DNA from: a virus
Taxonomy: Duplodnaviria > Heunggongvirae > Uroviricota > Caudoviricetes > Demerecviridae
Direction: 5' to 3' (one strand)
Virus record (IMG/VR): IMGVR_UViG_2974570554_000001
Length of the DNA: 64,000 bases
In this document: one piece after another, positions 9,679 to 19,581 of the stretch
Layout: each line of letters begins with the position of its first letter
How positions within the stretch are numbered: position 1 is the first letter of the stretch
Made by a program: the position numbers and the translations under genes
The notes under the pieces: model-generated
Database searches by the model: none
What the model was told of the DNA's origin: nothing
What the model saw: only the letters and a program-made list of their open reading frames with translations

Positions 9679-9755
9679 TGCGAGGATGGAGAAATGGCGT
9701 CTTGCGAGTTTCATAAGCTCGATAACGGGTGGTTCGAATCCACCGCTCGCATCCA
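9679..9755 (+). tRNA. tRNA anticodon CAT (Met or Ile2-type)
   Basis: Anticodon arm cgagt-TTCATAA-gctcg; T-arm ggtgg-TTCGAAT-ccacc; CCA encoded. Confidence 0.55.
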
Positions 9756-9761
9756 AATTAT

Positions 9762-9838
9762 GCGCGTGTAGCTCAGTTGGTTAGAGCATCTGACTTTTAA
9801 TCAGGTGGTCGAAGGTTCGAGTCCTTCTACGCGCACCA
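9762..9838 (+). tRNA. tRNA-Lys (TTT)
   Basis: gcgcgtg acceptor stem; D-arm tagctcagttggttagagca; loop CTTTTAA; T-loop TTCGAGT; CCA encoded. Confidence 0.75.
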
Positions 9839-9839
9839 T

Positions 9840-9915
9840 ACACCGGAAGACAGATGGATTGGTCGTCACCCTTTCAAGGTGGAGTTTGCGGGTTCGAGTC
9901 CCGTCCGGTGTACCA
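9840..9915 (+). tRNA. tRNA-Glu (TTC)
   Basis: Anticodon stem tcacc/ggtgg with loop CTTTCAA; T-loop TTCGAGT; acceptor acaccgg/ccggtgt; CCA encoded. Confidence 0.6.
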
Positions 9916-10116
9916 AATTTAAGATTTCTTTAGCTAGTATCCTAAACCGTGCCAGTGCAAAGAACAACTCACCACCGAACGCAAGCAGCTAGTAGGTGGG
10001 GAACTGAGAAGTGGCGTTCTCAGCCGGAATTGCAATCCGAGTGGAGTATAGGGGTGTCGGTCGGCTACCACAGAGCAGCGAGATGCTAAGGGTATTAGGC
10101 TAAAGAGATTTTTAAC

Positions 10117-10193
10117 GGGGAATTAGCTCTAATTGGGAGAGCACCTGCTTTGCACGCAGGGGGTTATCGGTTCGAATCCGTTATTCTCCACCA
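10117..10193 (+). tRNA. tRNA-Ala (TGC)
   Basis: D-stem gctc/gagc; anticodon stem cctgc/gcagg with loop TTTGCAC; TTCGAAT T-loop; CCA encoded. Confidence 0.65.
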
Positions 10194-10199
10194 AATTCT

Positions 10200-10276
10200 A
10201 GAGGCTTGGCTGAGTTGGTTATAGCGACTCCTTCATGCGGAGTAAGACGGGGGTTCAAGTCCCTCAGCCTCTACCA
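10200..10276 (+). tRNA. tRNA-Met (CAT)
   Basis: Acceptor agaggct/agcctct; anticodon stem actcc/ggagt with loop TTCATGC; T-loop TTCAAGT; CCA encoded. Confidence 0.6.
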
Positions 10277-10304
10277 AGAATATTTATAAATAGGAATAAC
10301 CTAT

Positions 10305-10838
10305 ATGCCAAAACTAGTTACAAACAATAGAAAACAAAACCTAGAGAAAATAGAAGAACTATTTCTCGAACGACTAAAATCAGAAGGTATCACAGAAGCT
10401 CTAATGGGTAAGATGGTAAAAACCTTTTACGGTACAGCTCCTTGGTATTCTGCTAGAAGCAGAAAAGCACAGAAATCTCGTAGACAAATGTTCTACTACA
10501 TGGGTCACTCTCTGCTACTACTATGCAAAAAACACAGTATACCTACTAAAGCTGGTTTTGTGTACGCTGTAACTAATAAAACATTTCCAAACTGTGTAAA
10601 GTTGGGACACACAAAAGATTGTGAAGACCGACTAATGCAGTACCAAACACATAGCCCACTAAAAGACTATGAAATGACTTGGCAGCAGTTCACCCTAGAC
10701 TCTTATGCTGCAGAGCAGAAACTTCTTTCATTATTTGAGAGAATACGCCCTAACGGGGAGTGGGTAAGTCTACAAACTGAGGACACTTTAAAGTTGAAAC
10801 AGTTACTAAATAAAAGTTTTAAAAGTTTGTCGTATTAA
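10305..10838 (+). CDS. T5orf172 / GIY-YIG-like domain protein, a putative homing-type endonuclease inside the tRNA cluster
   Basis: GFVYAVTNKTFPNCVKLGHTKD...RLMQYQTHSP resembles the T5orf172 (GIY-YIG superfamily) core; it lies between tRNA genes. Confidence 0.5.
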   Translation: MPKLVTNNRKQNLEKIEELFLERLKSEGITEALMGKMVKTFYGTAPWYSARSRKAQKSRRQMFYYMGHSLLLLCKKHSIPTKAGFVYAVTNKTFPNCVKLGHTKDCEDRLMQYQTHSPLKDYEMTWQQFTLDSYAAEQKLLSLFERIRPNGEWVSLQTEDTLKLKQLLNKSFKSLSY

Positions 10839-10842
10839 ACGT

Positions 10843-10918
10843 CTATGGAGGGCGGCGGGATTGTAGACCCCGTGTTGCGAAAGCAGCTCCCTAGGTTCGA
10901 TTCCTAGATGCGGCACCA
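10843..10918 (+). tRNA. tRNA-like element (pseudo- or atypical tRNA)
   Basis: Good T-arm ctagg-TTCGATT-cctag and a 3' gcggcACCA, but no 5' strand complementary to the acceptor 3' strand and no clean 7-nt anticodon loop. Confidence 0.3.
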
Positions 10919-10924
10919 TATTTT

Positions 10925-11000
10925 GGGGGATTAACTCAGTGGTTAGAGTGGCATCCTGTTAAGTTGCTGGTCGGTGGTTCGAGTCCACCATCCCTCGCCA
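10925..11000 (+). tRNA. tRNA-Asn (GTT)
   Basis: Acceptor gggggat/atccctc; D-stem actc/gagt; loop CTGTTAA; T-arm ggtgg-TTCGAGT-ccacc; CCA encoded. Confidence 0.65.
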
Positions 11001-11018
11001 TTTTAAGTTAAAAAGTAA

Positions 11019-11047
11019 TTGCTCAACTAGTTACTTTTCTGTATAAT
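11019..11047 (+). promoter_or_regulatory. T5-type early promoter
   Basis: -35 TTGCTC at 11019, -10 TATAAT at 11042, leader AGTTACATAAAGTTGAGAAACGGAGAT. Confidence 0.6.
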
Positions 11048-11080
11048 AGTTACATAAAGTTGAGAAACGGAGATAACAAA

Positions 11081-11275
11081 TTGAATAAACTAGGGCGACT
11101 AAAAGAAGCTGTTAAAGAGATTCGTAACGATACTGTTCATAATCTTCTAACCAAGCTTGTTAATGCTGGTGACATGAGACAAGCTCTCTACTTTACAGCA
11201 GGTTGTTTAATGTACATTGAGCACGACAAACGTGACCGTGTACATCTAGAATACATTCGAGACATTTTGTTATAA
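11081..11275 (+). CDS. hypothetical protein (TTG start)
   Basis: TTG sits where the ATG of paralogous leader modules lies, 7 nt after GGAGAT. Confidence 0.4.
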   Translation: MNKLGRLKEAVKEIRNDTVHNLLTKLVNAGDMRQALYFTAGCLMYIEHDKRDRVHLEYIRDILL

Positions 11276-11284
11276 AAGAATTAT

Positions 11285-11362
11285 GCGGCTGTGTGCGAGA
11301 TGGTTTAGGCAACCTCCCTGTCACGGAGGAGTACGTGGGTTCAAGTCCCATCGGTCGCGCCA
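11285..11362 (+). tRNA. tRNA-Asp (GTC)
   Basis: Anticodon arm cctcc-CTGTCAC-ggagg; T-arm gtggg-TTCAAGT-cccat; acceptor pairs with two G-U; D-arm irregular. Confidence 0.55.
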
Positions 11363-11380
11363 AATTTAAAGGTGAAGATA

Positions 11381-11545
11381 ATGATTAAAGTAATTGTAGG
11401 CGGAGAGGTTCTAGTATTTGAAGAACTTCAAGATGCATTTGACAATGTACCATTCTGGTCGGAAGCGACTATGATTGATACTGACGATAAAATCGTATAT
11501 TGCTACGATGCGGACGGTTCTCTTCTTCACCAAGAAAACTTATAA
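11381..11545 (+). CDS. small hypothetical protein (54 aa)
   Basis: RBS AAAGGTGAAGATA; sits between tRNA genes. Confidence 0.3.
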   Translation: MIKVIVGGEVLVFEELQDAFDNVPFWSEATMIDTDDKIVYCYDADGSLLHQENL

Positions 11546-11546
11546 A

Positions 11547-11624
11547 CGGGGTGTAATGTCAGTCTGGTAGACGGCTCGCTTTGGATGCGAGAGGTCGCTG
11601 GTTCGAATCCAGCCTCCCCGACCA
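11547..11624 (+). tRNA. tRNA-Pro (TGG)
   Basis: C1-G72 acceptor (cggggtg/ctccccg) as in bacterial tRNA-Pro; anticodon stem ctcgc/gcgag with loop TTTGGAT; TTCGAAT T-loop; CCA encoded. Confidence 0.65.
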
Positions 11625-11929
11625 AATGAGGAAACAGTATCCTTGCTCAAATGGGTACTCACTGAGGGACGAGCAATCCCAATATGTGCAGGCTGTCTAG
11701 CATATGCAGCTTTCGGTTGAAGTCACATGTTTAGTAATGCAAACCCATTAGCTACGGCTTGGGAGCTTGCCACTTACTCGGTTAAGTCCAAGAACCGCTG
11801 TGGAATATGTAAAGTCGTGATTCCTTCGGGATAGCGACTTCGGAAGTTATCTTCTGACTGCTAGCAAGTCCATAGCTATAGACTGTTGCAAAAGGCCGCA
11901 ACAGGGCAGTACAAAAGATAATTTACAAT
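11625..11929 (+). ncRNA. candidate structured stable RNA inside the tRNA cluster (about 300 nt)
   Basis: No ORF; several strong hairpins including two UUCG-type tetraloops (ccttcggg, gacttcggaag) and gcaggctgtctagcatatgcagc; flanked by tRNA genes, like the T4 species-1/2 RNAs. Confidence 0.3.
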
Positions 11930-12006
11930 GCGGGAGTGACGGAGTTGGTATACGTGTCGGCTTTAGATGCCGAATTTTGAGGGTTCGAGTCCCTCCTCCC
12001 GTACCA
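11930..12006 (+). tRNA. tRNA with anticodon TAG and a short variable loop (Leu-CUA reader in a type-I body?)
   Basis: Acceptor gcgggag/ctcccgt; anticodon stem tcggc/gccga with loop TTTAGAT; 5-nt variable loop; T-arm gaggg-TTCGAGT-ccctc; CCA encoded. Confidence 0.5.
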
Positions 12007-12012
12007 AACAAT

Positions 12013-12109
12013 GGAAGAGTAAGCCAACAGATTCTGGGTACTGGCAACTGTCTTGAAAACAGTCGATCCTTGAAAGGGTGTGTGGGTTCGAATCCCACTT
12101 CTTCCGCCA
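12013..12109 (+). tRNA. tRNA-Ser (TGA), type II
   Basis: Acceptor ggaagag/ttcttcc; anticodon stem actgt/acagt with loop CTTGAAA; long variable arm; T-arm gtggg-TTCGAAT-cccac; GCCA end. Confidence 0.65.
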
Positions 12110-12114
12110 ATTAG

Positions 12115-12150
12115 AACACGTAGGTTCGAACCCCCTACGGTTGCGTATGC
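12115..12150 (+). other. orphan T-arm-like hairpin (tRNA remnant?)
   Basis: cgtagg-TTCGAAC-ccctacg with no acceptor partner and no CCA. Confidence 0.3.
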
Positions 12151-12208
12151 GTCCTGATGCTGGGCAGTTGCGGTGAAACTCCGAAGGGCAGTCCCATTAA
12201 AAATGTAA

Positions 12209-12237
12209 TTGCTAAAAACGTTAAATAAACGTATAAT
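12209..12237 (+). promoter_or_regulatory. T5-type early promoter
   Basis: -35 TTGCTA at 12209, -10 TATAAT at 12232, canonical leader. Confidence 0.65.
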
Positions 12238-12268
12238 AGTTACATAAAGTTGAGAAACGGAGATTGTT

Positions 12269-12514
12269 ATGGAAGAATTCTACAAAGCTGCCTTGTTGAT
12301 GAAGAAATACTGTAAAGGTTACTGGCATACAGATAGTGCCATATCTCCTATAGTAAATGAAGAACACTTCAAAAACTTAGTCCCAGGTACTCCAATTAGT
12401 GATGCACTGATCGAAGAGTACAACAAGGTAAAAGAACACCCATACAAGCGACCTAAGATTAGACATATCCTACAGCAAATTATTGCTGATGATATTTTGA
12501 CTTATAAGATTTAA
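12269..12514 (+). CDS. hypothetical protein
   Basis: 81 aa, ATG directly after the GGAGATTGTT leader. Confidence 0.5.
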   Translation: MEEFYKAALLMKKYCKGYWHTDSAISPIVNEEHFKNLVPGTPISDALIEEYNKVKEHPYKRPKIRHILQQIIADDILTYKI

Positions 12515-12515
12515 T

Positions 12516-12602
12516 GCGTACTGAAGACTGAGTGGTCGGTCAGCAGCCTTCCAAGCTGTCGCCCCGAAAGGGGCTGGGGTTCGACTCCCCCTGTACGCTC
12601 CA
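12516..12602 (+). tRNA. tRNA with a long variable arm (type II); anticodon uncertain (loop CTTCCAA reads TCC)
   Basis: Acceptor gcgtac(t)/(t)gtacgc; variable hairpin gccccgaaaggggc; T-loop TTCGACT; CCA encoded; anticodon stem gcagc/gctgt. Confidence 0.45.
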
Positions 12603-12618
12603 AACATTAAAAACGTAA

Positions 12619-12647
12619 TTGCTAAACATCGCATTTTAACGTATAAT
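12619..12647 (+). promoter_or_regulatory. T5-type early promoter
   Basis: -35 TTGCTA at 12619, -10 TATAAT at 12642. Confidence 0.65.
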
Positions 12648-12679
12648 AGTTACATAAAGTTGAGAAACGGAGATAATAA

Positions 12680-12916
12680 ATGGCAATTTCAAAAGTACCA
12701 CAATCTGCTCAGAAACAAATTGATACGTTAGTTCACGTATTTGCAGCAGGTGATGGTGGTGGCGCTTTAGTAGCGTTCAAATGTCACTATGAACAAATTG
12801 AACTCGACGCTATTGCTGGTGATAAAAACGCACAAACAGTAATGGCAAATATGCAAGGCATCATCAATCTAGTTCAGCACCTAGCAGGTATTGACAACGA
12901 TAATCTACAGTATTAA
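12680..12916 (+). CDS. hypothetical protein
   Basis: 78 aa after the canonical leader. Confidence 0.5.
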   Translation: MAISKVPQSAQKQIDTLVHVFAAGDGGGALVAFKCHYEQIELDAIAGDKNAQTVMANMQGIINLVQHLAGIDNDNLQY

Positions 12917-12992
12917 GCTTCTTTAGCTCAGTTGGGAGAGCAGCTCACTTGTAATGAGCAGGTCGTCCGTTCGAATCGGACAAGGAGCACCA
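12917..12992 (+). tRNA. tRNA-Thr (TGT)
   Basis: D-arm tagctcagttgggagagca; anticodon stem gctca/tgagc with loop CTTGTAA; T-arm gtccg-TTCGAAT-cggac; CCA encoded. Confidence 0.7.
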
Positions 12993-13012
12993 TTTTTATT
13001 ACGGAGAAGATT

Positions 13013-13195
13013 ATGATTTATTTCAAAAATAAAGCAGGAAAACTTGGTATAGTATCTTTCGATGATGCAGAGTACGAACTCCAAGCCGTACAAAATCCAG
13101 AAGAGTTACATAAAGATGTAACCGTAGCTGTGAGAGGACTCCCTAAAGACTGTCTTCCAGCAGAAAAGACTGCATTCTTAACTGTAGTCAAATAA
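13013..13195 (+). CDS. hypothetical small protein
   Basis: ATG after RBS ACGGAGAAGATT; the longer track ORF would overlap tRNA-Thr. Confidence 0.4.
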   Translation: MIYFKNKAGKLGIVSFDDAEYELQAVQNPEELHKDVTVAVRGLPKDCLPAEKTAFLTVVK

Positions 13196-13202
13196 GAATA
13201 AT

Positions 13203-13278
13203 AGCGAGGTAGTTTAATTGGTAAAACATCGGACTTTGACTCCGACGTCGGTGGGTTCAAATCCCCCTCTCGCCACCA
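13203..13278 (+). tRNA. tRNA-Gln (TTG)
   Basis: D-stem gttt/aaac; anticodon stem tcgga/tccga with loop CTTTGAC; T-loop TTCAAAT; weak 1-72 pair (a Gln trait); CCA encoded. Confidence 0.6.
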
Positions 13279-13279
13279 T

Positions 13280-13355
13280 ACTCTCTTAGCTCAGTGTGTA
13301 GAGCACCTCCCTTACAAGGAGGGGGTCGTTGGTTCGAATCCAACAGGGAGTACCA
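13280..13355 (+). tRNA. tRNA-Val (TAC)
   Basis: D-arm tagctcagtgtgtagagca; anticodon stem cctcc/ggagg with loop CTTACAA; T-arm gttgg-TTCGAAT-ccaac; CCA encoded. Confidence 0.65.
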
Positions 13356-13512
13356 TCTTTAAGCGCATTACACAGACAAGCTCTACCCTGATAGGTATCT
13401 TGGCTCTGCGGGAGTAGTGACCTAAGGAAATCTGAGGCTGTGTCAACACTAGGCTGTGCCGGACGAGGATAGTGTGCTTAAAAATGGTAACACAATAACA
13501 AAGGATGAAGAT

Positions 13513-13917: not shown

Positions 13918-14144
13918 ATCCAGCAGAAGTAAAAGCTAAACTAGACATTCTTGATGGTGAGCTTAAAGACCTCACCATCAAAGCAAAAGTCCTAGCAGAT
14001 AAGAAACGTGAGTGTGAGAACGAGAAAGCCCGCTTGCGAGTAATTCAACAATCTGCTTGCGACCATCCAAGAGAAGCACGTAGTTCGGTTATGGTAAATA
14101 ACGAACCCGAATACTTCTGTACATTGTGTGGAAAAGATTTTTAG
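13914..14144 (+). CDS. hypothetical protein with a C-terminal Cys pair
   Basis: ATGA coupling; ends ...FCTLCGKDF. Confidence 0.45.
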   Translation: MNPAEVKAKLDILDGELKDLTIKAKVLADKKRECENEKARLRVIQQSACDHPREARSSVMVNNEPEYFCTLCGKDF

Positions 14145-14214
14145 GGCTGAGCCGGTGGCGGCAAAGCGGATTCCAAACCCGCCTACGTAGGTTCGACTCC
14201 TACCAGTTCTGCCA
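14143..14214 (+). tRNA. tRNA-Trp (CCA)
   Basis: A1-U72 start as in E. coli tRNA-Trp; anticodon stem gcgg/ccgc with loop TTCCAAA; T-arm gtagg-TTCGACT-cctac; CCA encoded. Confidence 0.5.
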
Positions 14215-14301: not shown

Positions 14302-14394
14302 CTCCCCTTAGCTCAGTTGGTAGAGCAGCGGGTTTATACTCCGTAGCAACAGATAATTGGCTGGTCACTGGTTCGAGTCCAGTAGGGGAGACCA
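14302..14394 (+). tRNA. atypical 93-nt tRNA (anticodon loop TTTATAC reads TAT) with a roughly 20-nt insertion or long variable arm
   Basis: C1-G72 acceptor ctcccct/aggggag; classic D-arm; anticodon stem gcggg/tccgt with G-U pairs; extra segment agcaacagataattggctggtc; T-arm actgg-TTCGAGT-ccagt; CCA encoded. Confidence 0.45.
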
Positions 14395-14744: not shown

Positions 14745-14820
14745 GCGGGAATAGCTCAGCAGGTAGAGCACTTGGTTGAAGACCTTGGTGTCGCTGGTTC
14801 AACTCCAGCTTCCCGCACCA
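14745..14820 (+). tRNA. tRNA-Phe (GAA)
   Basis: Overall similarity to E. coli tRNA-Phe (gcgggaatagctcag...gtagagca; loop TTGAAGA; variable loop GTGTC); anticodon stem has two T-T mismatches. Confidence 0.6.
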
Positions 14821-14829
14821 CAATTTAAT

Positions 14830-14905
14830 GCAGCTATAGTTCAACTGGATAGAGCACCACCCTACGAAGGTGATAATCTAGGTTCGAGTCCTAGTAGCTG
14901 TGCCA
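14830..14905 (+). tRNA. tRNA-Arg (ACG)
   Basis: Acceptor gcagcta/tagctgt; loop CTACGAA; T-arm ctagg-TTCGAGT-cctag; CCA encoded. Confidence 0.55.
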
Positions 14906-15220: not shown

Positions 15221-15310
15221 GGAGAGATGCCTGAATTGGTTAAGGGAGCGGGTTGCTAACCCGTCGGCTGCTTCGGTGGTCTCTGGGTTCGAATCCCAGT
15301 CTCTCCGCCA
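15221..15310 (+). tRNA. tRNA-Ser (GCT), type II
   Basis: Acceptor ggagaga/tctctcc; anticodon stem gcggg/cccgt with loop TTGCTAA; long variable arm; T-arm ctggg-TTCGAAT-cccag; GCCA end. Confidence 0.65.
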
Positions 15311-15435: not shown

Positions 15436-15639
15436 ATGTGGCGAAGACACAAAGTAAGAGTAAATTGGCATCGCCGTCTAAAAGACGATGAAATTGCAAA
15501 AGAAAACGGTTTTAACCAACGCTCGTTCAAACAAACTGAAGTCTATGAATATGATTTGTCTTGGTGGGACTACCCACATAGAACAGTACAGCGTAACTGG
15601 AAAAGCCAAAATAAGAACAGAAAACAATGGGAACGCTAG
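15436..15639 (+). CDS. hypothetical basic protein
   Basis: RBS AGGAGAGAAAC. Confidence 0.4.
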   Translation: MWRRHKVRVNWHRRLKDDEIAKENGFNQRSFKQTEVYEYDLSWWDYPHRTVQRNWKSQNKNRKQWER

Positions 15640-15665
15640 ACGTTCCCTTTCTTGTGGAGAATATA

Positions 15666-16214: not shown

Positions 16215-16840
16215 TGTTAGAAAAGATTTGGTCAGTTATTGCGGTGCTCCTAGTAATCGGAGCATCAATCATCTCAGGGGCAGATTTGTTTGTGTCTGCC
16301 TTGAGTCTAGTAGGTATTCTGTTTGTACTAGGTGTCGCTTTTAAGCGGCCAGAGTCACAGTTACTGGGTGCTGTATTCTGTGGGTTCTTGGCGTTTGCCT
16401 CGATGGGCGCAGGCTTTTATGCGAATGCAGTCGTCAATGGATTGATACTAATTCCAGCCTCTATATATGGATATTTTCATTGGAAGAGAAGAAAAGGTTT
16501 TCAATTAGAGCAAAGTATGTCTAGTGGTGGACTCACTAATATGATTGCTTCATTAGTGGCCGTCACAGCATTAGTGTTCTTCTTTGGAACTATGGGAGCA
16601 GGTGGGGCTATGCCTTTACTAGATGCTCTCACAGCAGTTATGCCAGTCGTCGCTACTTTCTTGATGATTGGAGCATATCGTGATCAGTGGTTCTTATGGA
16701 TACCTTACAATGCAATACAAGCCTTTATGTGGTTTACCGCCGCGTCTTTGCAGCCTGCGGTACTGGCGGTGTTTGTGTTAAAGATGGTATTCCTAGTGAA
16801 CTCACTAATTGGATTCTATCAATGGAGAAAAGGGGCGTAA
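16214..16840 (+). CDS. pnuC: PnuC-like nicotinamide riboside transporter
   Basis: Polytopic membrane protein; IYGYFHWKRRKG and WFLWIPYNAIQAFMWF resemble the PnuC signature motifs; ATGA coupling with the upstream gene. Confidence 0.55.
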   Translation: MLEKIWSVIAVLLVIGASIISGADLFVSALSLVGILFVLGVAFKRPESQLLGAVFCGFLAFASMGAGFYANAVVNGLILIPASIYGYFHWKRRKGFQLEQSMSSGGLTNMIASLVAVTALVFFFGTMGAGGAMPLLDALTAVMPVVATFLMIGAYRDQWFLWIPYNAIQAFMWFTAASLQPAVLAVFVLKMVFLVNSLIGFYQWRKGA

Positions 16841-16923
16841 GCCTCTTTCTTTAAAGTTTCATTTGCTAACTTCTCTTATTTCACGTATAATTATTATATA
16901 AATTGATGAGAGAGGTTATCAAA

Positions 16924-17046
16924 ATGAACTCAGTTCTTATGGGCATTGCCTGTATTACTTTGATAATGTTTTCAGTAGCAGGTCTAGGTCTACTTTTGAA
17001 AGCGTTATTCCCTATGCTTTGTAACGATTCTAAGGAGAAATTTTAA
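16924..17046 (+). CDS. small membrane peptide (40 aa)
   Basis: RBS GAGAGG; single TM helix. Confidence 0.3.
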   Translation: MNSVLMGIACITLIMFSVAGLGLLLKALFPMLCNDSKEKF

Positions 17047-17333
17047 TGGTTAAACCACGTTATGATTTACGTCTATTTGACATTACAGAGAAAGGTTACG
17101 AGCTTCTAGCTAAACTAAAGTTTACCACCTTCTTGCCAGACGGTACTCGTACTATCACCTGCAAAGGCGGTACTGATTTACATAAATCAATCTCTAGCAT
17201 GATTGAAATGGGTCACTTAAAAGTTGAAGTCCTAAGACAGTTCAACTTCCCAGGTGAGCTACAAGCTGCTAGAAATAATGAAAAACATAAGCCAGCTAAG
17301 AAATGTTGTCCACATTGCGGAGGCAAACTATGA
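17046..17333 (+). CDS. hypothetical protein with a C-terminal CCPHCGGKL zinc ribbon
   Basis: 95 aa. Confidence 0.5.
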   Translation: MVKPRYDLRLFDITEKGYELLAKLKFTTFLPDGTRTITCKGGTDLHKSISSMIEMGHLKVEVLRQFNFPGELQAARNNEKHKPAKKCCPHCGGKL

Positions 17334-17587
17334 TTGACACTTGGGAATGGGCAGAAGTTGCATCTAAAATCTTAGGACTTCCAGAAGAAACCGACGAAGA
17401 AGTTGTAGAACACCACCTACTCCAAGAGTATGGTCTAGACTTGGAAGGTTTTGGTAATATTGCTGAGAAGCTTCTAGGTATGACTGCACCTATGCGAACT
17501 GTACTTGGTAATGAGTTAGTACAAGCGTTCGTTGTAAATGACGAGCATGGTACTCGTGCAATTGTTAAACAGGAGTTTGTAAAATGA
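17330..17587 (+). CDS. hypothetical protein
   Basis: Start at ATG 17330 with RBS GGAGGCAAACT. Confidence 0.45.
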   Translation: MIDTWEWAEVASKILGLPEETDEEVVEHHLLQEYGLDLEGFGNIAEKLLGMTAPMRTVLGNELVQAFVVNDEHGTRAIVKQEFVK

Positions 17588-17745
17588 TTAAACTATCCTT
17601 ACAACAAGCAGAAGCTATGTTGGCTTTCCTTAATGACATTGAAGAAGAGAAAGGCAATCTACTTCCCCAAGAAGAAGAATTACAAGCCTATCTTGACGCA
17701 GCAATTGACGCTGAAAAAGATAAAAACTTAATTGCTAACTAGCTA
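17584..17745 (+). CDS. small acidic protein (53 aa)
   Basis: RBS ACAGGAG; its end overlaps the -35 element of the next promoter. Confidence 0.35.
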
Positions 17746-17760
17746 ATAAATCTGTATAAT
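17732..17760 (+). promoter_or_regulatory. T5-type early promoter
   Basis: -35 TTGCTA at 17732, -10 TATAAT at 17755, canonical leader. Confidence 0.65.
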
Positions 17761-17791
17761 AGTTACATAAAGTTGAGAAACGGAGATTGTT

Positions 17792-18025
17792 ATGAAAAAC
17801 GTAGTTATTAGTGAAAGCCTGTTTAAAGCAATGATGGAGCAGCTAGGTTACTGGGCTGACTACTGCGATGACTCGGAAGGTTATCTAAAAGATTTGCTGT
17901 CAGATGTAAACGAAAACGCAAAGGAAAACGCAGTAGCACTTAGTGTAGTTCATGAACTAATCTGCGAAAAAGAGGGCTACGACTGTGATGATGAACAATC
18001 AGACGCACTAGAAATCATATTTTAG
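17792..18025 (+). CDS. hypothetical acidic protein
   Basis: 77 aa after the canonical leader. Confidence 0.5.
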   Translation: MKNVVISESLFKAMMEQLGYWADYCDDSEGYLKDLLSDVNENAKENAVALSVVHELICEKEGYDCDDEQSDALEIIF

Positions 18026-18101
18026 GGTTGTATGCTGAAGTGGACGAAGCGCGGGATTGCAAACCCCGTCTTACTCGGTTCGAGTCCGAGACTTCCCTCC
18101 A
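18025..18101 (+). tRNA. tRNA-Cys (GCA)
   Basis: Anticodon region gcgggATTGCAAAccccgtc resembles E. coli tRNA-Cys; T-arm ctcgg-TTCGAGT-ccgag; discriminator U73; acceptor has two T-T mismatches. Confidence 0.5.
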
Positions 18102-18119
18102 AATTACTTAAAAATGGAA

Positions 18120-18149
18120 TTGCTAAATAACTAAAAATTCCGTATAATA
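18120..18149 (+). promoter_or_regulatory. T5-type early promoter driving a non-coding leader and tRNA-His
   Basis: -35 TTGCTA at 18120, -10 TATAAT at 18144; the downstream leader diverges (GTTGAGAGAGTCAAG) and no ORF follows. Confidence 0.55.
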
Positions 18150-18155
18150 GTTACA

Positions 18156-18414
18156 TAAAGTTGAGAGAGTCAAGTAAGCGCGGTAACTGGTGTAATGTAG
18201 TCACTACTTCGTGGATTGTAATTCTTTCTCGACTTGTCACATTAAAACATTCTTGAATTGTCTGATAGAGTAAGAGCCGTCAGAAAAAGACAGAAAGCCA
18301 TGCTACCCACACTAGACTCTTACAGTGTTGGGTACGAAAGCCTGAATAAGAACATGGTCAGGTCATGCCGTGAGGATAGCTACCTCTAGAGCTAACTGTG
18401 TAGAGTGTTTTAAT
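18156..18414 (+). ncRNA. candidate promoter-driven structured ncRNA or tRNA-His precursor leader
   Basis: About 260 nt with no ORF; the 13-nt segment gtcacattaaaac (18233) is the exact reverse complement of gttttaatgtgac (18407), which overlaps the tRNA-His 5' end. Confidence 0.35.
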
Positions 18415-18491
18415 GTGACGTTGGCTGAAGTGGGAATGGCTCTGGGTTGTGATTCCAGAATATGCGGGTTCGATCCCCGTACGTCACCCCA
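18415..18491 (+). tRNA. tRNA-His (GTG)
   Basis: Acceptor gtgacgt/acgtcac; anticodon stem ctggg/tccag with loop TTGTGAT; discriminator C73 (His identity); T-arm gcggg-TTCGATC-cccgt; CCA encoded. Confidence 0.6.
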
Positions 18492-18508
18492 AATCTAAAG
18501 AGGTAAAC

Positions 18509-18709
18509 ATGAGAAACTGGTTTACAACTAGAAAAATAGTAGTGCCTAGTAGTAAAACACAAGCTATAGGGTACACACTATATTTAACACCAATTATAGC
18601 GTGTATATGCGGACAAAATTGGGATCGTAAGATTGCTAATATGTCAGACATTAGACGCTGTGCAGATAAACAGTGGGAAGCACATGAGAAAGCTACTAAA
18701 ACGTCGTAA
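18509..18709 (+). CDS. hypothetical protein
   Basis: Strong RBS AAAGAGGTAAAC. Confidence 0.4.
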   Translation: MRNWFTTRKIVVPSSKTQAIGYTLYLTPIIACICGQNWDRKIANMSDIRRCADKQWEAHEKATKTS

Positions 18710-18887
18710 TAAACAAAAATTTACTGCAATCTTCAAAGAAGGTCGCACAATGTTCCCTAAAGGCGAGTTCAACAATGTAACTTACCTAGGGCAGTCCAAC
18801 GGTATGAATCTATTTCGTGCCGATGAAGGCTTTGCTTATAAAGGCATGACTTTCTGTAACGAAGCGACTTGGTCATAACAAAATAAT

Positions 18888-18964
18888 GCGCCCTTAGCTC
18901 AGCTGGATAGAGCACGTCCCTTCTAAGGATGTGGTCGTAGGTTCGAATCCTACAGGGCGTGCCA
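18888..18964 (+). tRNA. tRNA-Arg (TCT)
   Basis: D-arm tagctcagctggatagagca; anticodon stem cgtcc/ggatg with loop CTTCTAA; T-arm gtagg-TTCGAAT-cctac; GCCA end. Confidence 0.7.
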
Positions 18965-18980
18965 TTTTCTATTGGAGAAG

Positions 18981-19145
18981 ATAATGTTCACATTAGGCGT
19001 AATATGGCTTATTTTTCAAGGTATAACTTGTACTGCTCTAGCTGATTGTAAAAGTGAAGACATGTGTAATAAAATTATGTGGATGCCAACGATAGTACGT
19101 TGGATTATCTTTACTGTCCCGTCCTTAGTCGTATGGGCTAATAAA
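18981..19145 (+). CDS. small membrane protein (54 aa)
   Basis: RBS GGAGAAGATA; two hydrophobic segments. Confidence 0.3.
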
Positions 19146-19159
19146 TAACGGAGAAGATT

Positions 19160-19489
19160 ATGTTTACTAGAGAACAAAAATACGTTGTAATATCTCTTAG
19201 AGATATTCGTGAAGGACTAGATGAAGGTCAAAAAATGGCTTTAGCTGGTCTACTATCAAAGATGGAAAACCATCGTAAAGCTCGTGGCAGAGAGCCAATT
19301 GAAGCAGTAGTTATTGACAAAAACACTCTAGGTGAACTACCGTATGAGGACGGTTTCAAAATTGTTGAATCAGCAGTACATGCAAAACATCAACGAAACT
19401 GCGAACATACATATAAACGTGACATTGCAGTTATGGGTGGTCTAGACGTACTAACCTGTACCAAATGTGGTCACGTAGAACTTGAATAA
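19160..19489 (+). CDS. hypothetical protein with a C-terminal CxxC...CxxC zinc ribbon
   Basis: RBS ACGGAGAAGATT. Confidence 0.5.
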   Translation: MFTREQKYVVISLRDIREGLDEGQKMALAGLLSKMENHRKARGREPIEAVVIDKNTLGELPYEDGFKIVESAVHAKHQRNCEHTYKRDIAVMGGLDVLTCTKCGHVELE

Positions 19490-19494
19490 ACAAC

Positions 19495-19581
19495 GCTGGC
19501 GTGGTGGAATTGGTAATACACGTGGGGCTTAAAACCCCATGCCCTAGAGGATTGAGAGTTCGAGTCTCTCCGCCAGTACCA
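19495..19581 (+). tRNA. tRNA-Leu (TAA), type II
   Basis: Acceptor gctggcg/cgccagt; anticodon stem tgggg/cccca with loop CTTAAAA; long variable arm; T-arm gagag-TTCGAGT-ctctc; ACCA end. Confidence 0.65.

What the first reader, a model, noticed from the sequence alone, without database searches (positions are those of the whole stretch)
9679..19581. tRNA gene cluster of about 25 tRNAs with several non-canonical members
I could hand-fold tRNAs reading Met(x2, CAT), Lys, Glu, Ala, Asn, Asp, Pro, Ser(x2), Thr, Gln, Val, Trp, Ile, Phe, Arg(x2), Cys, His and Leu. Most encode the CCA end. Four oddities stand out. (i) 11930..12006 has a clean anticodon loop TTTAGAT (anticodon UAG, a Leu-CUA reader) but only a 5-nt variable loop, whereas bacterial tRNA-Leu is always type II. 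(ii) 14302..14394 is 93 nt with a C1-G72 start, anticodon loop TTTATAC (UAU) and a roughly 20-nt extra segment. (iii) 12516..12602 has a long variable-arm hairpin but an anticodon loop reading UCC. (iv) 10843..10918 has a perfect T-arm and CCA but no acceptor partner. I found no canonical Gly or Tyr tRNA, so (ii) or (iii) may be mis-parsed Tyr or Gly genes, or genuinely remodelled tRNAs.
Basis: seen in the sequence. Interest (0 to 1): 0.55.

Follow-up and report, generated by a model that had tools for sequence, protein, structure and literature searches.

The report
Phage tRNA cluster with remodelled tRNAs
This is the 25-gene tRNA cluster of a T5-like Vibrio phage, and one of its odd members belongs to a widespread, apparently undescribed family of isoleucine tRNAs that carry a second arm resembling an isoleucine anticodon arm.

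Summary
The window is Vibrio phage Thalassa (T5-like, Demerecviridae). Positions 9679-19581 hold 25 tRNA genes. All are on the + strand, all end in CCA, and together they cover all 20 amino acids. GenBank annotates 23 and misses Tyr and Ser(UGA).

- (i) A 77-nt type-I tRNA(UAG). It belongs to a family shared with T5-like and V5-like coliphages, has a Leu-like D-loop and A73, and reads CUA, the phage's commonest Leu codon.
- (iii) The Gly(UCC) tRNA has a tRNA-Sec/allo-tRNA-like fold (8/4 acceptor/T, 6-bp D-stem, long variable arm) but carries the GlyRS identity set.
- (ii) The most interesting case. The 93-nt tRNA is a tRNA-Ile body with two anticodon-type hairpins: one with anticodon UAU, and one in the variable region with loop CAGAUAA, which resembles a GAU Ile anticodon loop. 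It replaces the tRNA-Ile2(CAU) gene found at this site in related phages.

Oddity (iv) was mis-registered. It is an ordinary type-II tRNA-Tyr that starts 14 nt further upstream.

I found more than 70 distinct relatives of (ii) in phages, conjugative plasmids and scattered bacteria. Their acceptor stems covary freely while both loops stay fixed. Codon alignments show no reassignment.

Likely function of (ii): TilS-independent AUA decoding. Whether the second hairpin supplies IleRS identity is my hypothesis and is untested. I found no published description.

The parts
9679..9755 (+). tRNA(CAU), 77 nt. Unusual: U73 discriminator and a G7.G66 mismatch
   Evidence: ARAGORN; Rfam only 30.6 bits; conserved as the first tRNA of the cluster in relatives
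9762..9838 (+). tRNA-Lys(UUU)
   Evidence: 74.8 bits
9840..9915 (+). tRNA-Glu(UUC)
10117..10193 (+). tRNA-Ala(UGC)
10200..10276 (+). tRNA(CAU), 77 nt, with G37 in the loop UUCAUGC
10305..10838 (+). ORF of 177 aa with a T5orf172/MUG113 (GIY-YIG-like) domain. Its last 10 nt, including the stop codon, are the 5' end of tRNA-Tyr
   Evidence: Pfam; ORF list; the overlap is read from the sequence
10829..10918 (+). tRNA-Tyr(GUA), 90 nt, type II, not annotated in GenBank.
   Evidence: ARAGORN -ps90; 44 phage records at 90% identity or more; compensatory changes against VspSw_1 and PG07
10925..11000 (+). tRNA-Asn(GUU)
11285..11362 (+). tRNA-Asp(GUC)
11547..11624 (+). tRNA-Pro(UGG)
11930..12006 (+). Type-I (5-nt variable loop) tRNA with anticodon UAG, presumed Leu. 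Oddity (i)
   Evidence: family alignment; CUA usage; codon meaning
12013..12109 (+). tRNA-Ser(UGA), 97 nt, with an enlarged D-loop. Not annotated in GenBank
   Evidence: Rfam 40.1 bits; syntenic Ser(tga) in Ceto, VF16 and pVp-1; sequence
12516..12602 (+). tRNA-Gly(UCC), 87 nt, with a tRNA-Sec/allo-tRNA-like fold. Oddity (iii)
   Evidence: best Rfam model is tRNA-Sec at 41.3 bits; 52 phage records
12561..12574 (+). Variable-arm hairpin of the Gly tRNA (GCCCC-GAAA-GGGGC)
   Evidence: length kept but sequence varies in relatives
12917..12992 (+). tRNA-Thr(UGU)
13203..13278 (+). tRNA-Gln(UUG)
13280..13355 (+). tRNA-Val(UAC)
14143..14214 (+). tRNA-Trp(CCA), 72 nt, with a weak D-arm
   Evidence: ARAGORN; Rfam 27.7 bits, below the gathering score
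14221..14296 (+). tRNA-Ile(GAU), 76 nt, loop CCGAUAA
   Evidence: 68.6 bits
14302..14394 (+). tRNA-Ile(UAU), 93 nt, with two anticodon-type hairpins. Oddity (ii)
   Evidence: family alignment A1; pair counts
14328..14344 (+). Hairpin 1 of the 93-nt tRNA: GCGGG-UUUAUAC-UCCGU. It has U33 and carries anticodon UAU at 14335-14337. This is the decoding arm according to ARAGORN and Infernal
   Evidence: the anticodon is TAT in all 38 tRNAs found when the loop was left free
14346..14361 (+). Hairpin 2 of the 93-nt tRNA: GCAA-CAGAUAA-UUG(G)C. It lies in the variable region, in register with the anticodon arm of the neighbouring tRNA-Ile(GAU)
   Evidence: the repeat finder family D7; 3 of 4 stem pairs show compensatory changes; loop CAGATAA in 36 of 39 loci when left free
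14745..14820 (+). tRNA-Phe(GAA)
14830..14905 (+). tRNA-Arg(ACG)
15221..15310 (+). tRNA-Ser(GCU), type II
18025..18101 (+). tRNA-Cys(GCA), with two U.U mismatches in the acceptor stem
   Evidence: ARAGORN; Rfam 21.5 bits only
18415..18491 (+). tRNA-His(GUG)
18888..18964 (+). tRNA-Arg(UCU)
19495..19581 (+). tRNA-Leu(UAA), canonical type II

Best explanation
This region is the tRNA gene cluster of the T5-like Vibrio phage Thalassa. It holds 25 working tRNA genes, one or more for each amino acid. They lie among small ORFs, repeated early-type promoters and a homing-endonuclease-like gene. The cluster supplies the phage's own decoding set, biased towards codons the phage uses heavily.

The odd members are functional tRNAs with standard amino-acid meaning but remodelled bodies.

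(i) This is a variable-arm-less tRNA-Leu(UAG) of a type shared with T5-like and V5-like coliphages.

(iii) This is the phage's only Gly tRNA, built on a tRNA-Sec/allo-tRNA-like 8/4 scaffold.

(iv) This is an ordinary type-II tRNA-Tyr.

(ii) This decodes AUA without needing the host lysidine synthetase TilS, and it has replaced the tRNA-Ile2(CAU) gene at the same site. Its body is a complete tRNA-Ile(GAU)-like molecule. A 17-nt stem-loop carrying UAU sits between positions 26 and 27, so the former GAU-type arm (loop CAGAUAA) now lies in the variable region.

Shown: the genes, their structures, their conservation and covariation, the gene replacement, the wide distribution on mobile elements, and the standard codon meaning.

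Inferred: that the tRNAs are charged by host LeuRS, GlyRS and IleRS.

My hypothesis, at about 0.35: the second hairpin keeps the loop bases that IleRS reads (G34, A35, U36, A37, A38, plus a C-G pair at the place of 29-41). It would then act as a built-in identity module, letting an IleRS that rejects U34 still charge this tRNA in any host.
For: Identity of the window: 100% match to MG649967 and NC_042095.

Inventory.

Codon demand in 48 window ORFs: CUA is 43% of Leu codons, AUA is 17% of Ile codons, and AGA is 22% of Arg codons.

Standard meaning, from 74 orthologue pairs with Ceto, VF16 and pVp-1: ATA aligns to I in 61% of positions (ATT 69%, ATC 81%), CTA aligns to L in 82%, and GGA and GGG align to G in 78% and 91%.

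(i) There are 77-nt homologues in KookSpook, 4MG, Av-05 and JSF12. Their acceptor and anticodon stems covary, and they conserve A14, the UUGGUA D-loop, U48 and A73. These match the E. coli LeuRS determinants listed in PMC6614811.

(iii) The tRNA-Sec model fits best. The same 87-nt gene occurs in 52 records. There are compensatory changes in the anticodon stem and the first T-stem pair between the Thalassa and Ceto types.

(iv).

(ii) At the syntenic site Ceto, VF16 and pVp-1 have a 76-nt CAT tRNA, which VF16's annotation calls tRNA-Ile. The same 93-nt tRNA is the lone confident tRNA call in the fetched loci of the unrelated Vibrio phages henriette 12B8 and V6Aob. A pattern scan gave 70 distinct sequences from 99 loci. 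On 66 sequences, 97.5% of cells are paired, and 14 pairs have changes on both sides, including 3 of the 4 pairs of hairpin 2. Mean pairwise identity is 0.44 in the acceptor stem but 0.86-0.91 in the D, anticodon and V stems. With the anticodon arm fixed, 36 of 39 viral loci have the V-loop CAGATAA. With the V-loop fixed, all 38 tRNAs have TAT. Hairpin 2 aligns without gaps with the anticodon arm of tRNA-Ile(GAU) (D7). Members occur on Xanthomonas conjugative plasmids and in Acinetobacter and Stenotrophomonas phages. E. coli IleRS charges tRNA-Ile(UAU) poorly (PMC3575796 abstract).
Against: No expression, processing or aminoacylation data exist for any of these tRNAs.

E. coli LeuRS did not charge the Streptomyces type-I tRNA-Leu (PMC6614811), so charging of (i) by a gamma-proteobacterial LeuRS is not assured. 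Thalassa also has G15 where its relatives have A15.

For the identity-module idea:
- Class I synthetases approach the tRNA from the D-arm side, so a true variable arm would not reach the anticodon-binding domain. The idea therefore needs hairpin 2, not hairpin 1, to stack under the D-stem during charging. Nothing here tests that.
- Three of 39 viral members have unrelated or altered V-loops (UGGACUG, GAGACGA, CAGAUUA). DLP_6 has CAGAUUA.
- Hairpin 2 has only 4 pairs plus a bulged G.
- The co-occurrence of UAU with CAGAUAA partly reflects common descent.
- The two large scans fixed both loops, so they cannot show loop variation.
- The minimum-free-energy fold of the single sequence is not a cloverleaf.
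Confidence: 0.75

Rival explanations
1. The remodelled shapes exist mainly to escape host tRNA-cleaving defences such as anticodon nucleases, PARIS AriB, retron effectors and OLD-type nucleases. These enzymes recognise the host tRNA body or anticodon arm. On this view the extra or missing arms are evasion devices and have nothing to do with synthetase recognition. This rival is compatible with the tRNAs being functional.
For: Phage T5 tRNAs neutralise PARIS and retron-associated tRNA nucleases (PMC11464382 and PMC11555353). OLD removes the anticodon arm of tRNAs (PMC12445682). The cluster is a near-complete replacement set. Different alleles, type I or type II Leu(UAG) and CAU or UAU Ile, alternate at the same site among close relatives, as expected under an arms race.
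Against: No defence system is known to target tRNA-Ile2, tRNA-Gly(UCC) or tRNA-Leu(UAG) in Vibrio. The Ile(UAU) family also sits in bacterial chromosomes and on conjugative plasmids, where phage defence evasion is not an obvious selective force. Evasion alone would not explain why the V-loop sequence is invariant across phyla.
Confidence: 0.3
2. Hairpin 2 of the Ile(UAU) tRNA is a tolerated evolutionary relic. A UAU stem-loop was inserted, or the anticodon arm was duplicated in tandem, in a tRNA-Ile(GAU) gene. The old arm survives only because it now serves as a harmless variable arm. IleRS recognises the tRNA through A73, the D-arm and A35/U36 of the real anticodon.
For: The length difference is exactly 17 nt, and hairpin 2 aligns in register with the neighbouring tRNA-Ile(GAU). 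A few family members have quite different V-loops. IleRS enzymes of some bacteria accept UAU (PMC3575796, and references 44 and 45 of PMC9976931).
Against: A relic loop should drift. Here the 7-nt loop is identical in 36 of 39 unbiased viral hits with at least 12 different acceptor stems. It is also identical in members from Proteobacteria, Nitrospirota, Verrucomicrobiota and a Bacillales MAG, while its stem covaries.
Confidence: 0.2
3. One or more of the long-arm tRNAs is charged with a non-cognate amino acid and recodes sense codons. Ile(UAU) would be charged by LeuRS or SerRS, or Gly(UCC) by SerRS. Precedents are the nematode nev-tRNAs and some allo-tRNAs.
For: Nematode class II tRNAs with UAU and CCC anticodons are leucylated in vitro (PMC3333845). 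Allo-tRNAs with a long V-arm and G73 or U73 are predicted SerRS substrates and insert Ser or Ala in E. coli (PMC5389517). The Gly tRNA shares the allo-tRNA architecture and has U73.
Against: ATA, GGA and GGG codons align with Ile and Gly in orthologues at rates like their synonymous codons. The Gly tRNA is the only Gly tRNA in the set and carries G1-C72, C2-G71, G3-C70, U73, C35 and C36. C2-G71 is listed as an antideterminant for E. coli SerRS (PMC9976931, Table 3). The Ile tRNA has a 4-bp D-stem and a class I-type core, unlike LeuRS substrates.
Confidence: 0.07
4. The odd loci are decaying pseudogenes or software artefacts in a fast-evolving phage region.
For: Low model scores: Tyr is found only at a relaxed ARAGORN threshold. 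Gly, Trp and Cys fall below the Rfam gathering score. There are mismatches in several stems. VF16's annotators flagged its Cys as a possible pseudogene.
Against: All have intact CCA ends. They are conserved over 44-52 or more phage genomes. They show compensatory changes.
Confidence: 0.05

Closest known systems
tRNA gene clusters of T5-like phages (Demerecviridae)
   Same: A block of about 20-25 tRNA genes on one strand, in the early or pre-early part of the genome. The genes are interspersed with small ORFs and homing-endonuclease-like genes. Gene order is conserved with Ceto, Pontus, VF16 and pVp-1. The type-I tRNA(UAG) is shared with T5-like coliphages.
   Different: The Thalassavirus cluster carries the 8/4 Gly tRNA and the two-hairpin Ile(UAU) tRNA. 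I did not see either in the coliphage relatives that matched.
tRNA-Ile(UAU) ('tRNA-Ile3') of Mycoplasma mobile, Bifidobacterium, Neorickettsia and lactic acid bacteria
   Same: A genomically encoded UAU anticodon that reads AUA without lysidine or TilS (PMC3575796; PMC8450103).
   Different: None of the passages I read about those tRNAs mentions an extra arm or unusual length, and in M. mobile charging depends on an IleRS adapted to accept U34. The family here is 91-94 nt with an extra anticodon-type hairpin. It sits mainly on phages and plasmids and in scattered bacteria whose IleRS is not known to be adapted.
tRNA-Ile2(CAU) plus TilS (lysidine)
   Same: The same decoding task (AUA) and the same genomic slot. 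Ceto, VF16 and pVp-1 have a 76-nt CAT tRNA exactly where Thalassa and Pontus have the 93-nt gene.
   Different: No C34 and therefore no need for TilS. The anticodon stem and overall architecture also differ.
Nematode nev-tRNAs (class II tRNAs with UAU or CCC anticodons)
   Same: A long extra arm on tRNAs whose anticodons read Ile or Gly codons (PMC3333845).
   Different: nev-tRNAs have a tRNA-Leu-like body and are leucylated. The family here has a tRNA-Ile-like body, and the extra arm's loop has a conserved sequence. Codon alignments indicate Ile and Gly.
Allo-tRNAs and (8/4) tRNAs of bacteria and phages (Mukai et al. 2017, PMC5389517)
   Same: The Gly(UCC) tRNA has an 8-bp acceptor stem with a 4-bp T-stem, a long D-stem with a tetraloop, a long V-arm and U73.
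   Different: In the passages I read, the 8/4 phage tRNAs reported are Ser and His; no UCC anticodon appears in the text. The tRNA here carries the full GlyRS identity set plus the SerRS antideterminant C2-G71. Its anticodon stem has 5 pairs rather than the longer stem described, and its acceptor stem has one U.U mismatch.
Type-I tRNA-Leu(CAA) of Streptomyces coelicolor (PMC6614811)
   Same: A bacterial-system tRNA-Leu with a short variable loop that coexists with type-II tRNA-Leu.
   Different: A different anticodon (UAG) and a different lineage (phage). The phage family keeps A73 and, in 4 of 5 members, A15-U48. The Streptomyces case needs a specially adapted LeuRS, and E. coli LeuRS did not charge that tRNA.

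Membership tests
tRNA (Rfam RF00005 / cloverleaf) | Match to the covariance model at or above the gathering score (29 bits) | tested here: met
   Leu(UAG) 62.1 bits, Ile(UAU) 59.7 bits, Ser(UGA) 40.1 bits. Not met for Gly (best model is tRNA-Sec at 41.3, below its cut-off of 47), Tyr (tRNA-Sec 21.9), Trp (27.7) or Cys (21.5). ARAGORN finds those four.
tRNA (functional gene) | Stems maintained by compensatory changes in homologues | tested here: met
   Ile(UAU): 14 pairs changed on both sides, 97.5% of cells paired. Tyr: acceptor pair 7-66, one anticodon-stem pair and two V-arm pairs. Leu(UAG): acceptor and anticodon stems differ and still pair in 5 phages. Gly: two anticodon-stem pairs and one T-stem pair.
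tRNA-Ile, E. coli-type IleRS identity set (PMC9976931 section 11, for A73, the anticodon positions, t6A37, C4-G69, the 12-23 pair and C29-G41; A38 from my knowledge of Nureki et al. 1994) | A73 discriminator | tested here: met
   A at the discriminator in Thalassa and in at least 90% of the 66 family members.
tRNA-Ile, E. coli-type IleRS identity set | Anticodon-loop determinants G34 or lysidine34, A35, U36, (t6)A37, A38 | tested here: not met
   The decoding loop UUUAUAC has U34 and C38. All five bases are present in the loop of hairpin 2, CAGAUAA. Whether IleRS reads that loop was not tested.
tRNA-Ile, E. coli-type IleRS identity set | Pair 12-23 and C29-G41; C4-G69 | tested here: inconclusive
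   U12-A23 is invariant (columns 13-25). Pair 29-41 of hairpin 1 is G-C, not C-G. The third pair from the loop of hairpin 2 is C-G in 62 of 66 members (columns 48-60). Pair 4-69 is not conserved (columns 5-89).
Class II (long variable arm) tRNA | Base-paired extra arm of 10 nt or more between the anticodon and T arms | tested here: met
   Ile(UAU) has a 22-nt variable region containing a 16-nt hairpin. Gly has a 14-nt hairpin. Tyr has a 5-bp stem with a GAAA loop. Leu(UAG) has only 5 nt, so the feature is not met for that tRNA.
Allo-tRNA / (8/4) tRNA (PMC5389517) | 12-bp acceptor branch split 8/4 or 9/3 | tested here: met
   For Gly(UCC), GCGUACUG pairs with CUGUACGC: 8 positions with one U.U mismatch. 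The T-stem GGGG/CCCC has 4 bp. The 7/5 alternative needs two mismatches (U7.U66 and U49.C65) in both the Thalassa and Ceto types.
Allo-tRNA / (8/4) tRNA | tRNA-Sec-like D-arm (long stem, tetraloop), long V-arm, G73 or U73 | tested here: met
   GACUGA-GUGG-UCGGUC forms a 6-bp stem with a 4-nt loop. The V-arm is present and the discriminator is U73. The D-stem is invariant in relatives, so there is no covariation test.
Allo-tRNA / (8/4) tRNA | Anticodon stem longer than the canonical 5 bp | tested here: not met
   The sixth position is an A.C mismatch in both the Thalassa and Ceto types.
tRNA-Gly, E. coli-type GlyRS identity (established knowledge: G1-C72, C2-G71, G3-C70, U73, C35, C36) | All six elements present | tested here: met
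   Read directly from 12516-12602. Actual charging is not testable with these tools.
tRNA-Leu, E. coli-type LeuRS identity (PMC6614811 introduction) | A73, A14, A15-U48, G18G19 in a Leu-type D-loop | tested here: inconclusive
   A73, A14, G18G19 and U48 are present in all 5 family members. A15 is present in 4 of 5, but Thalassa has G15. The long variable arm is absent.
Bacterial tRNA-Tyr | Type II arm, anticodon GUA, A73, G1-C72 | tested here: met
   10829-10918. It differs from the norm in having G37 instead of A37 and an A31.C39 mismatch, both conserved in VspSw_1 and PG07.

The most novel reading that the evidence does not exclude
The 93-nt tRNA and its relatives would be natural 'split-identity' tRNAs. 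One anticodon-type arm (UAU) reads the codon on the ribosome. A second arm, a look-alike of the tRNA-Ile(GAU) anticodon arm, is what IleRS reads. For this to work, the five-way junction would have to rearrange so that either hairpin can stack under the D-stem. This would uncouple synthetase recognition from decoding. It would make the tRNA a host-independent, TilS-independent AUA decoder, which would explain its spread on phages and plasmids.
Probability: 0.3. Interest if true: 0.85.

Novelty: new variant of a known kind. Interest (0 to 1): 0.62.

Why it matters
AUA is the awkward codon of the bacterial code. It normally needs a CAU tRNA that TilS must modify, both to prevent it reading AUG and to make IleRS accept it. 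Only a few bacteria are known to use a plain UAU tRNA, and those cases studied needed an adapted IleRS.

A tRNA-Ile(UAU) family with the following properties suggests a portable solution to that problem:
- It is spread across phages, conjugative plasmids and unrelated bacteria.
- Its acceptor stem varies freely.
- Its extra hairpin is invariant and resembles the GAU anticodon arm.

If the hairpin does carry IleRS identity, this would be the first natural tRNA in which recognition by the synthetase and decoding are carried by separate arms. It would also be a ready-made design for orthogonal tRNAs.

Independently of that, the cluster shows that a phage can run its commonest Leu codon on a variable-arm-less tRNA-Leu, and all its GGA/GGG decoding on a tRNA-Sec-shaped tRNA-Gly. 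This widens the range of tRNA shapes that bacterial translation evidently tolerates.

There is also a practical point. Default annotation missed two of the 25 genes in the GenBank and RefSeq records.

Tried and rejected
- Single-sequence folding of the 93-nt tRNA gave a non-cloverleaf minimum-free-energy structure (z = -2.45). I did not use it, because covariation is the better evidence.
- A strict phage-type pattern found only one IMG/VR contig. Relaxing the D-loop was needed.
- I considered that hairpin 1 might be an intron, leaving a GAU tRNA. I rejected this because bacteria lack a system for splicing such small insertions, hairpin 1 has U33 and an invariant UAU, and hairpin 2 has A at the place of U33 and a bulged stem.
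- I considered a loop-loop kissing interaction: UUAU of loop 1 against AUAA of loop 2, which contains the AUA codon. It is possible on paper but is broken in the CAGAUUA variants, and it is geometrically strained with a 1-nt linker.
- I looked for a conserved neighbouring gene in 14 bacterial loci and found none; the contexts differ.
- Rfam at a permissive threshold gave nothing credible for the non-coding spacers.
- Seven literature searches found no description of the two-hairpin Ile family or of an 8/4 tRNA-Gly. The library lacks most subscription journals, so this is weak evidence of novelty.
- No member was found in 5,426 E. coli genomes. None of the species-representative genomes that matched the pattern was a Vibrio.

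Full report
**What the window is.** Positions 9600-19700 match Vibrio phage Thalassa (MG649967 / NC_042095) at 100% identity over the full length. Thalassa belongs to Demerecviridae, Ermolyevavirinae, genus Thalassavirus, and its host is Vibrio harveyi. Window position equals record position minus 64602. Both database records annotate 23 tRNAs here, the same 23 that ARAGORN finds at default settings. The cluster as such is therefore already public. What is open is the nature of its odd members.

**Inventory.** ARAGORN at default settings finds 23 genes. Rfam RF00005 at its gathering score finds 21. These include a Ser(UGA) gene at 12013-12109 that ARAGORN misses, but not Gly, Trp, Cys or Tyr. 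Lowering the ARAGORN threshold to 90% adds Tyr(GUA) at 10829-10918. The total is 25 genes, all on the + strand, all ending in CCA, with at least one for each of the 20 amino acids.

The genes are interspersed with several other features:
- small ORFs;
- five copies of a 77-nt promoter-plus-leader repeat (D1);
- a T5orf172/MUG113 (GIY-YIG-like) ORF;
- a YqeY-domain ORF;
- a nucleoside 2-deoxyribosyltransferase;
- a PnuC-type transporter.

Gene order is conserved with Pontus, Ceto, VF16 and pVp-1.

**Oddity (iv) is a registration error.** GTCGTAT pairs with ATGCGGC through two G.U pairs. This gives a 90-nt type-II tRNA with anticodon GUA, a 5-bp variable stem capped by GAAA, A73 and G1-C72. The same allele is present in 44 phage records at 90% identity or more. 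In the more distant phages VspSw_1 and PG07 it shows compensatory changes at acceptor pair 7-66, in the anticodon stem and at two variable-arm pairs. Its first 10 nt overlap the end of the T5orf172 ORF. It is a real tRNA-Tyr that the Thalassa annotation lacks.

**Oddity (i): a tRNA-Leu without the long arm.** The gene at 11930-12006 is a clean class I cloverleaf (62 bits) with anticodon UAG and variable loop AUUUU. At the same site, Pontus, Ceto, VF16 and pVp-1 carry an 87-nt type-II tRNA-Leu(UAG) with nearly the same acceptor and T arms but a different centre.

The 77-nt form is not a local accident. Full-length homologues exist in T5-like coliphages (KookSpook and many others, annotated tRNA-Leu, tRNA-OTHER or 'Pseudo-TAG'), in V5-like phages (4MG, Av-05) and in Vibrio phage JSF12. 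Across these five the acceptor and anticodon stems differ yet still pair. The following are conserved:
- U8, A14 and a Leu-type D-loop (A-R-UUGGUA);
- a variable loop ending in U48;
- A73.

These are the E. coli LeuRS determinants listed in PMC6614811, except that Thalassa has G15 where the others have A15.

CUA is by far the phage's commonest Leu codon: 43% of Leu codons, or 36 per 1000 codons, in 48 window ORFs. CTA codons align with Leu in orthologues as often as other Leu codons do, at 82%. The tRNA is therefore almost certainly a working Leu tRNA. One caveat remains: E. coli LeuRS failed to charge the one characterised bacterial type-I tRNA-Leu (PMC6614811).

**Oddity (iii): a tRNA-Gly on a tRNA-Sec-like scaffold.** The best-fitting Rfam model for 12516-12602 is tRNA-Sec (41.3 bits against a cut-off of 47), not the general tRNA model. 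The alignment shows these features:
- an 8-position acceptor stem (one U.U mismatch) with a 4-bp T-stem;
- a 6-bp D-stem closed by a GUGG tetraloop;
- a 5-bp anticodon stem with loop CUUCCAA;
- a GCCCC-GAAA-GGGGC variable arm.

This is the architecture described for allo-tRNAs and (8/4) phage tRNAs (PMC5389517). In the passages I read, that paper reports Ser and His versions in phages.

The same 87-nt gene is present in 52 records, all of them Vibrio phages and, among those I fetched, all Ermolyevavirinae. Between the Thalassa and Ceto types, two anticodon-stem pairs and the first T-stem pair change in a compensatory way. The two positions that a 7/5 reading would need to pair stay mismatched. 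Pogseptimavirus relatives have an ordinary 76-nt Gly(UCC).

The tRNA carries G1-C72, C2-G71, G3-C70, U73, C35 and C36, which is the E. coli GlyRS identity set (established knowledge). C2-G71 is also a listed antideterminant for SerRS (PMC9976931, Table 3). It is the only Gly tRNA in the set, and GGA and GGG align with Gly in orthologues. That last test is not independent, because the relatives carry the same tRNA.

**Oddity (ii), anatomy.** The 93-nt gene at 14302-14394 has seven parts, in this order:
1. a 7-bp acceptor stem starting C1-G72;
2. a standard D-arm;
3. A26;
4. hairpin 1, GCGGG-UUUAUAC-UCCGU (14328-14344);
5. one A;
6. hairpin 2, GCAA-CAGAUAA-UUG(G)C with a bulged G (14346-14361);
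7. UGGUC, a 5-bp T-arm, A73 and CCA.

ARAGORN and Infernal both take hairpin 1 as the anticodon arm (UAU) and treat hairpin 2 as variable-region insertion.

The repeat finder independently aligned 14349-14394 with 14251-14296 without gaps (D7). This means hairpin 2 plus UGGUC sits exactly where the anticodon arm (loop CCGAUAA) and 5-nt variable loop sit in the neighbouring 76-nt tRNA-Ile(GAU). The length difference of 17 nt (93 minus 76) equals hairpin 1. The molecule can therefore be described as a complete tRNA-Ile(GAU)-type body with a 17-nt UAU stem-loop added between positions 26 and 27.

The loop of hairpin 2 differs from the E. coli tRNA-Ile1 loop CUGAUAA (my knowledge) only by A at the place of U33.

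**Oddity (ii), relatives.** At the syntenic site Ceto, VF16 and pVp-1 have a 76-nt CAT tRNA with a tRNA-Ile-like body. VF16's annotators call it tRNA-Ile. Thalassa and Pontus have the 93-mer instead, and about 50 Vibrio phage records match it closely. This is a gene replacement: an AUA decoder that depends on TilS was replaced by one that does not.

The same 93-mer is the only confident tRNA call in the loci I fetched from two unrelated Vibrio phages, henriette 12B8 and V6Aob. Its central 57 nt are identical there, but its acceptor and T stems are different and compensated.

A pattern fixing only GAGC and the two loops found matches in 39 species-representative genome contigs and 113 metagenome contigs. 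ARAGORN recognised 99 of the scanned loci as tRNA(UAU), giving 70 distinct sequences of 88-94 nt. The hosts include:
- Microbulbifer, Marinobacter and Cellvibrio;
- many Alphaproteobacteria;
- Nitrospirales;
- Verrucomicrobiota;
- Zetaproteobacteria;
- a Bacillales MAG.

Many metagenomic copies lie in phage-like tRNA arrays. Further members are in Acinetobacter phage qsb1 and in Stenotrophomonas phage DLP_6, where it is annotated tRNA-Ile-TAT. They are also on conjugative Dot/Tra-type plasmids of Xanthomonas such as pXCV183. None was found in 5,426 E. coli genomes. No Vibrio genome was among the hits.

**Oddity (ii), structure and conservation.** On 66 distinct sequences, the cloverleaf with hairpin 2 is paired in 97.5% of cells. 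Fourteen of 25 pairs have changes on both sides. These comprise all 7 acceptor pairs, 4 T-stem pairs and 3 of the 4 pairs of hairpin 2. The shifted-partner controls give only 39-56% pairing.

Mean pairwise identity is 0.44 in the acceptor stem and 0.73 in the T stem, but 0.86-0.91 in the D-arm, the anticodon stem and the stem of hairpin 2.

Because that scan fixed both loops, I ran two further scans of IMG/VR:
- With the anticodon arm fixed and the variable region free, 36 of 39 loci have CAGATAA. These carry at least 12 different acceptor stems. One locus has CAGATTA and two have unrelated loops.
- With the V-loop fixed and the anticodon loop free, all 38 tRNAs have TAT, with U33 invariant and positions 32, 37 and 38 variable.

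So the loop of the extra arm is conserved about as strongly as the anticodon. That is not what variable arms of Leu, Ser or Tyr tRNAs do.

**How it most likely works.**

*Shown:* the cluster provides a full decoding set. The phage's codon usage leans on the codons these tRNAs read. The codons keep their standard meaning.

*Inferred:* host synthetases charge all 25 tRNAs.

*For the 93-mer:* the decoding arm is hairpin 1, which has U33, a purine at 37 and a canonical 5-bp stem. The job is AUA decoding without TilS, which suits a mobile element entering hosts where AUA is rare.

*The open step is charging.* E. coli IleRS charges tRNA-Ile(UAU) poorly (PMC3575796), and the decoding loop lacks G34 and A38. 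Hairpin 2 retains G34, A35, U36, A37 and A38, and has a C-G pair at the place of the minor determinant C29-G41 (determinants from PMC9976931, with A38 from my own knowledge). I therefore propose that hairpin 2 is a built-in IleRS identity module.

This proposal has a geometric cost. A class I synthetase would not reach a true variable arm, so hairpin 2 would have to take the place under the D-stem during charging. The four pairs plus a stacked bulge would give roughly the length of a 5-bp stem. I give this hypothesis about 0.3-0.35.

**Rivals.**
- *Neutral relic.* The conserved extra arm might be a tolerated relic of an insertion. The loop conservation argues against this.
- *Defence evasion.* The remodelled shapes might help escape tRNA-targeting defences, for which T5 tRNAs provide precedents (PMC11464382, PMC11555353). 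This is plausible for the cluster as a whole. It does not explain an invariant loop in chromosomal and plasmid copies.
- *Recoding.* Mischarging as in nematode nev-tRNAs or allo-tRNAs is disfavoured by the codon alignments and the identity elements.
- *Pseudogenes.* Conservation, covariation, intact CCA ends and codon demand all disfavour this.

**Comparison with what is known.**
- The cluster is a typical T5-like tRNA cluster.
- The type-I tRNA-Leu(UAG) is routinely annotated in coliphage genomes but is unusual. Published work says almost all bacterial tRNA-Leu are type II (PMC6614811).
- The Gly tRNA is best filed as a new member of the 8/4, tRNA-Sec-like class. One listed feature, the longer anticodon stem, is not met.
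- The Ile(UAU) family is related in function to the tRNA-Ile(UAU) of Mycoplasma mobile, Bifidobacterium and lactic acid bacteria, but differs in architecture.

I found no description of the Ile(UAU) family in seven full-text searches, nor in the reviews of non-canonical tRNAs and of tRNA identity that I read. The library lacks most subscription journals, and genome annotations already label members as tRNA-Ile-TAT. The claim of novelty is therefore limited to the recognition of the family and of its second hairpin.

**Limits.**
- There are no expression or charging data.
- The two largest scans fixed both loops. The unbiased scans covered viral contigs only and fixed the anticodon stem.
- Members are homologous, so co-occurrence counts are not independent events.
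- Whether the bacteria that carry the gene also have tilS and tRNA-Ile2 could not be checked.

Noticed in passing
window 11625-11929 (also L004:8436-8739, L006:8202-8529, L003:8010-8345): A non-coding spacer of about 305 nt between tRNA-Pro and tRNA-Leu(UAG). It is conserved in Ceto (93%), Pontus (88%) and pVp-1 (72%). It has long invariant blocks, one internal hairpin swapped for an unrelated one, and a few compensatory pairs (292-312 and 295-309 of alignment A2). There is no Rfam match, and the single-sequence fold z-score is only -1.5. It could be a structured small RNA co-transcribed with the tRNAs, like the T4 'species 1/2' RNAs.
   Followed up: partly
window 9916-10116, 13356-13512, 14395-14524, 15311-15435, 18186-18414: Further non-coding gaps of 125-230 nt that follow tRNA genes. 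The gap at 15311-15435 is conserved in four relatives (81-88%). The gap at 18186-18414 is found only in Pontus (99%). The gap at 9916-10116 is found in none of the four relatives fetched, where Glu and Ala are adjacent in Ceto.
   Followed up: partly
window 11008-11084, 12198-12274, 12608-12684, 17721-17797, 18109-18185 (a similar sequence lies near 19585-19660): Five copies of a 77-nt repeat: AAAAA-N-GTAATTGCTAA ... GTATAATAGTTACATAAAGTTGAGAAACGGAGAT, followed by a start codon. It looks like a promoter with a -10 TATAAT, plus a fixed leader and Shine-Dalgarno sequence, in front of small ORFs. The fifth copy (18109) keeps the promoter part but runs into a non-coding stretch (D1).
   Followed up: no
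window 12110-12145: A stand-alone T-arm-like hairpin (GTAGG-TTCGAAC-CCCTAC) directly after tRNA-Ser(UGA). At a relaxed threshold ARAGORN builds a spurious 'Ser(cga)' from it. The 94-nt stretch is conserved in pVp-1 (84%) and VF16 (78%). It may be a tRNA remnant.
   Followed up: partly
window 13513-13917: An ORF inside the tRNA cluster has a YqeY domain, which is like the GatB C-terminal domain (Pfam E = 7e-11). RefSeq calls it 'tRNA amidotransferase'. It is conserved at the same place in Ceto, Pontus, VF16 and pVp-1. It may be a tRNA-binding accessory protein.
   Followed up: partly
window 9679-9755 and 10200-10276: Both CAU tRNAs are atypical. The first has U73, a G7.G66 mismatch and only 30.6 Rfam bits. 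The second has G37 (loop UUCAUGC) and A1-U72. Neither shows the usual initiator hallmarks, so which one serves as initiator or elongator is unclear.
   Followed up: no
window 14221-14296: The canonical-looking tRNA-Ile(GAU) has C33 (loop CCGAUAA) instead of the near-universal U33 (read from the sequence).
   Followed up: no
L011:2171-2204 region, L017:1373-1406 region, L115: Verrucomicrobial members of the two-hairpin Ile(UAU) family (Puniceicoccaceae, Coraliomargarita) carry an additional GC-rich insertion of about 55 nt. It lies between the 5' strand of the T-stem and the T-loop (GTGGG-[insert]-TTCGAGTCCCAC). ARAGORN therefore does not call them.
   Followed up: partly
window 15627-16840: A nucleoside 2-deoxyribosyltransferase and a PnuC-type nicotinamide-riboside/NMN transporter are embedded in the tRNA cluster and conserved in relatives.
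   Followed up: no
NC_042095 / MG649967 annotation of window 11285-11362: The GenBank note reads 'tRNA-Asp (gtg)', but the anticodon is GTC. The records also lack the Tyr and Ser(UGA) genes.
   Followed up: yes
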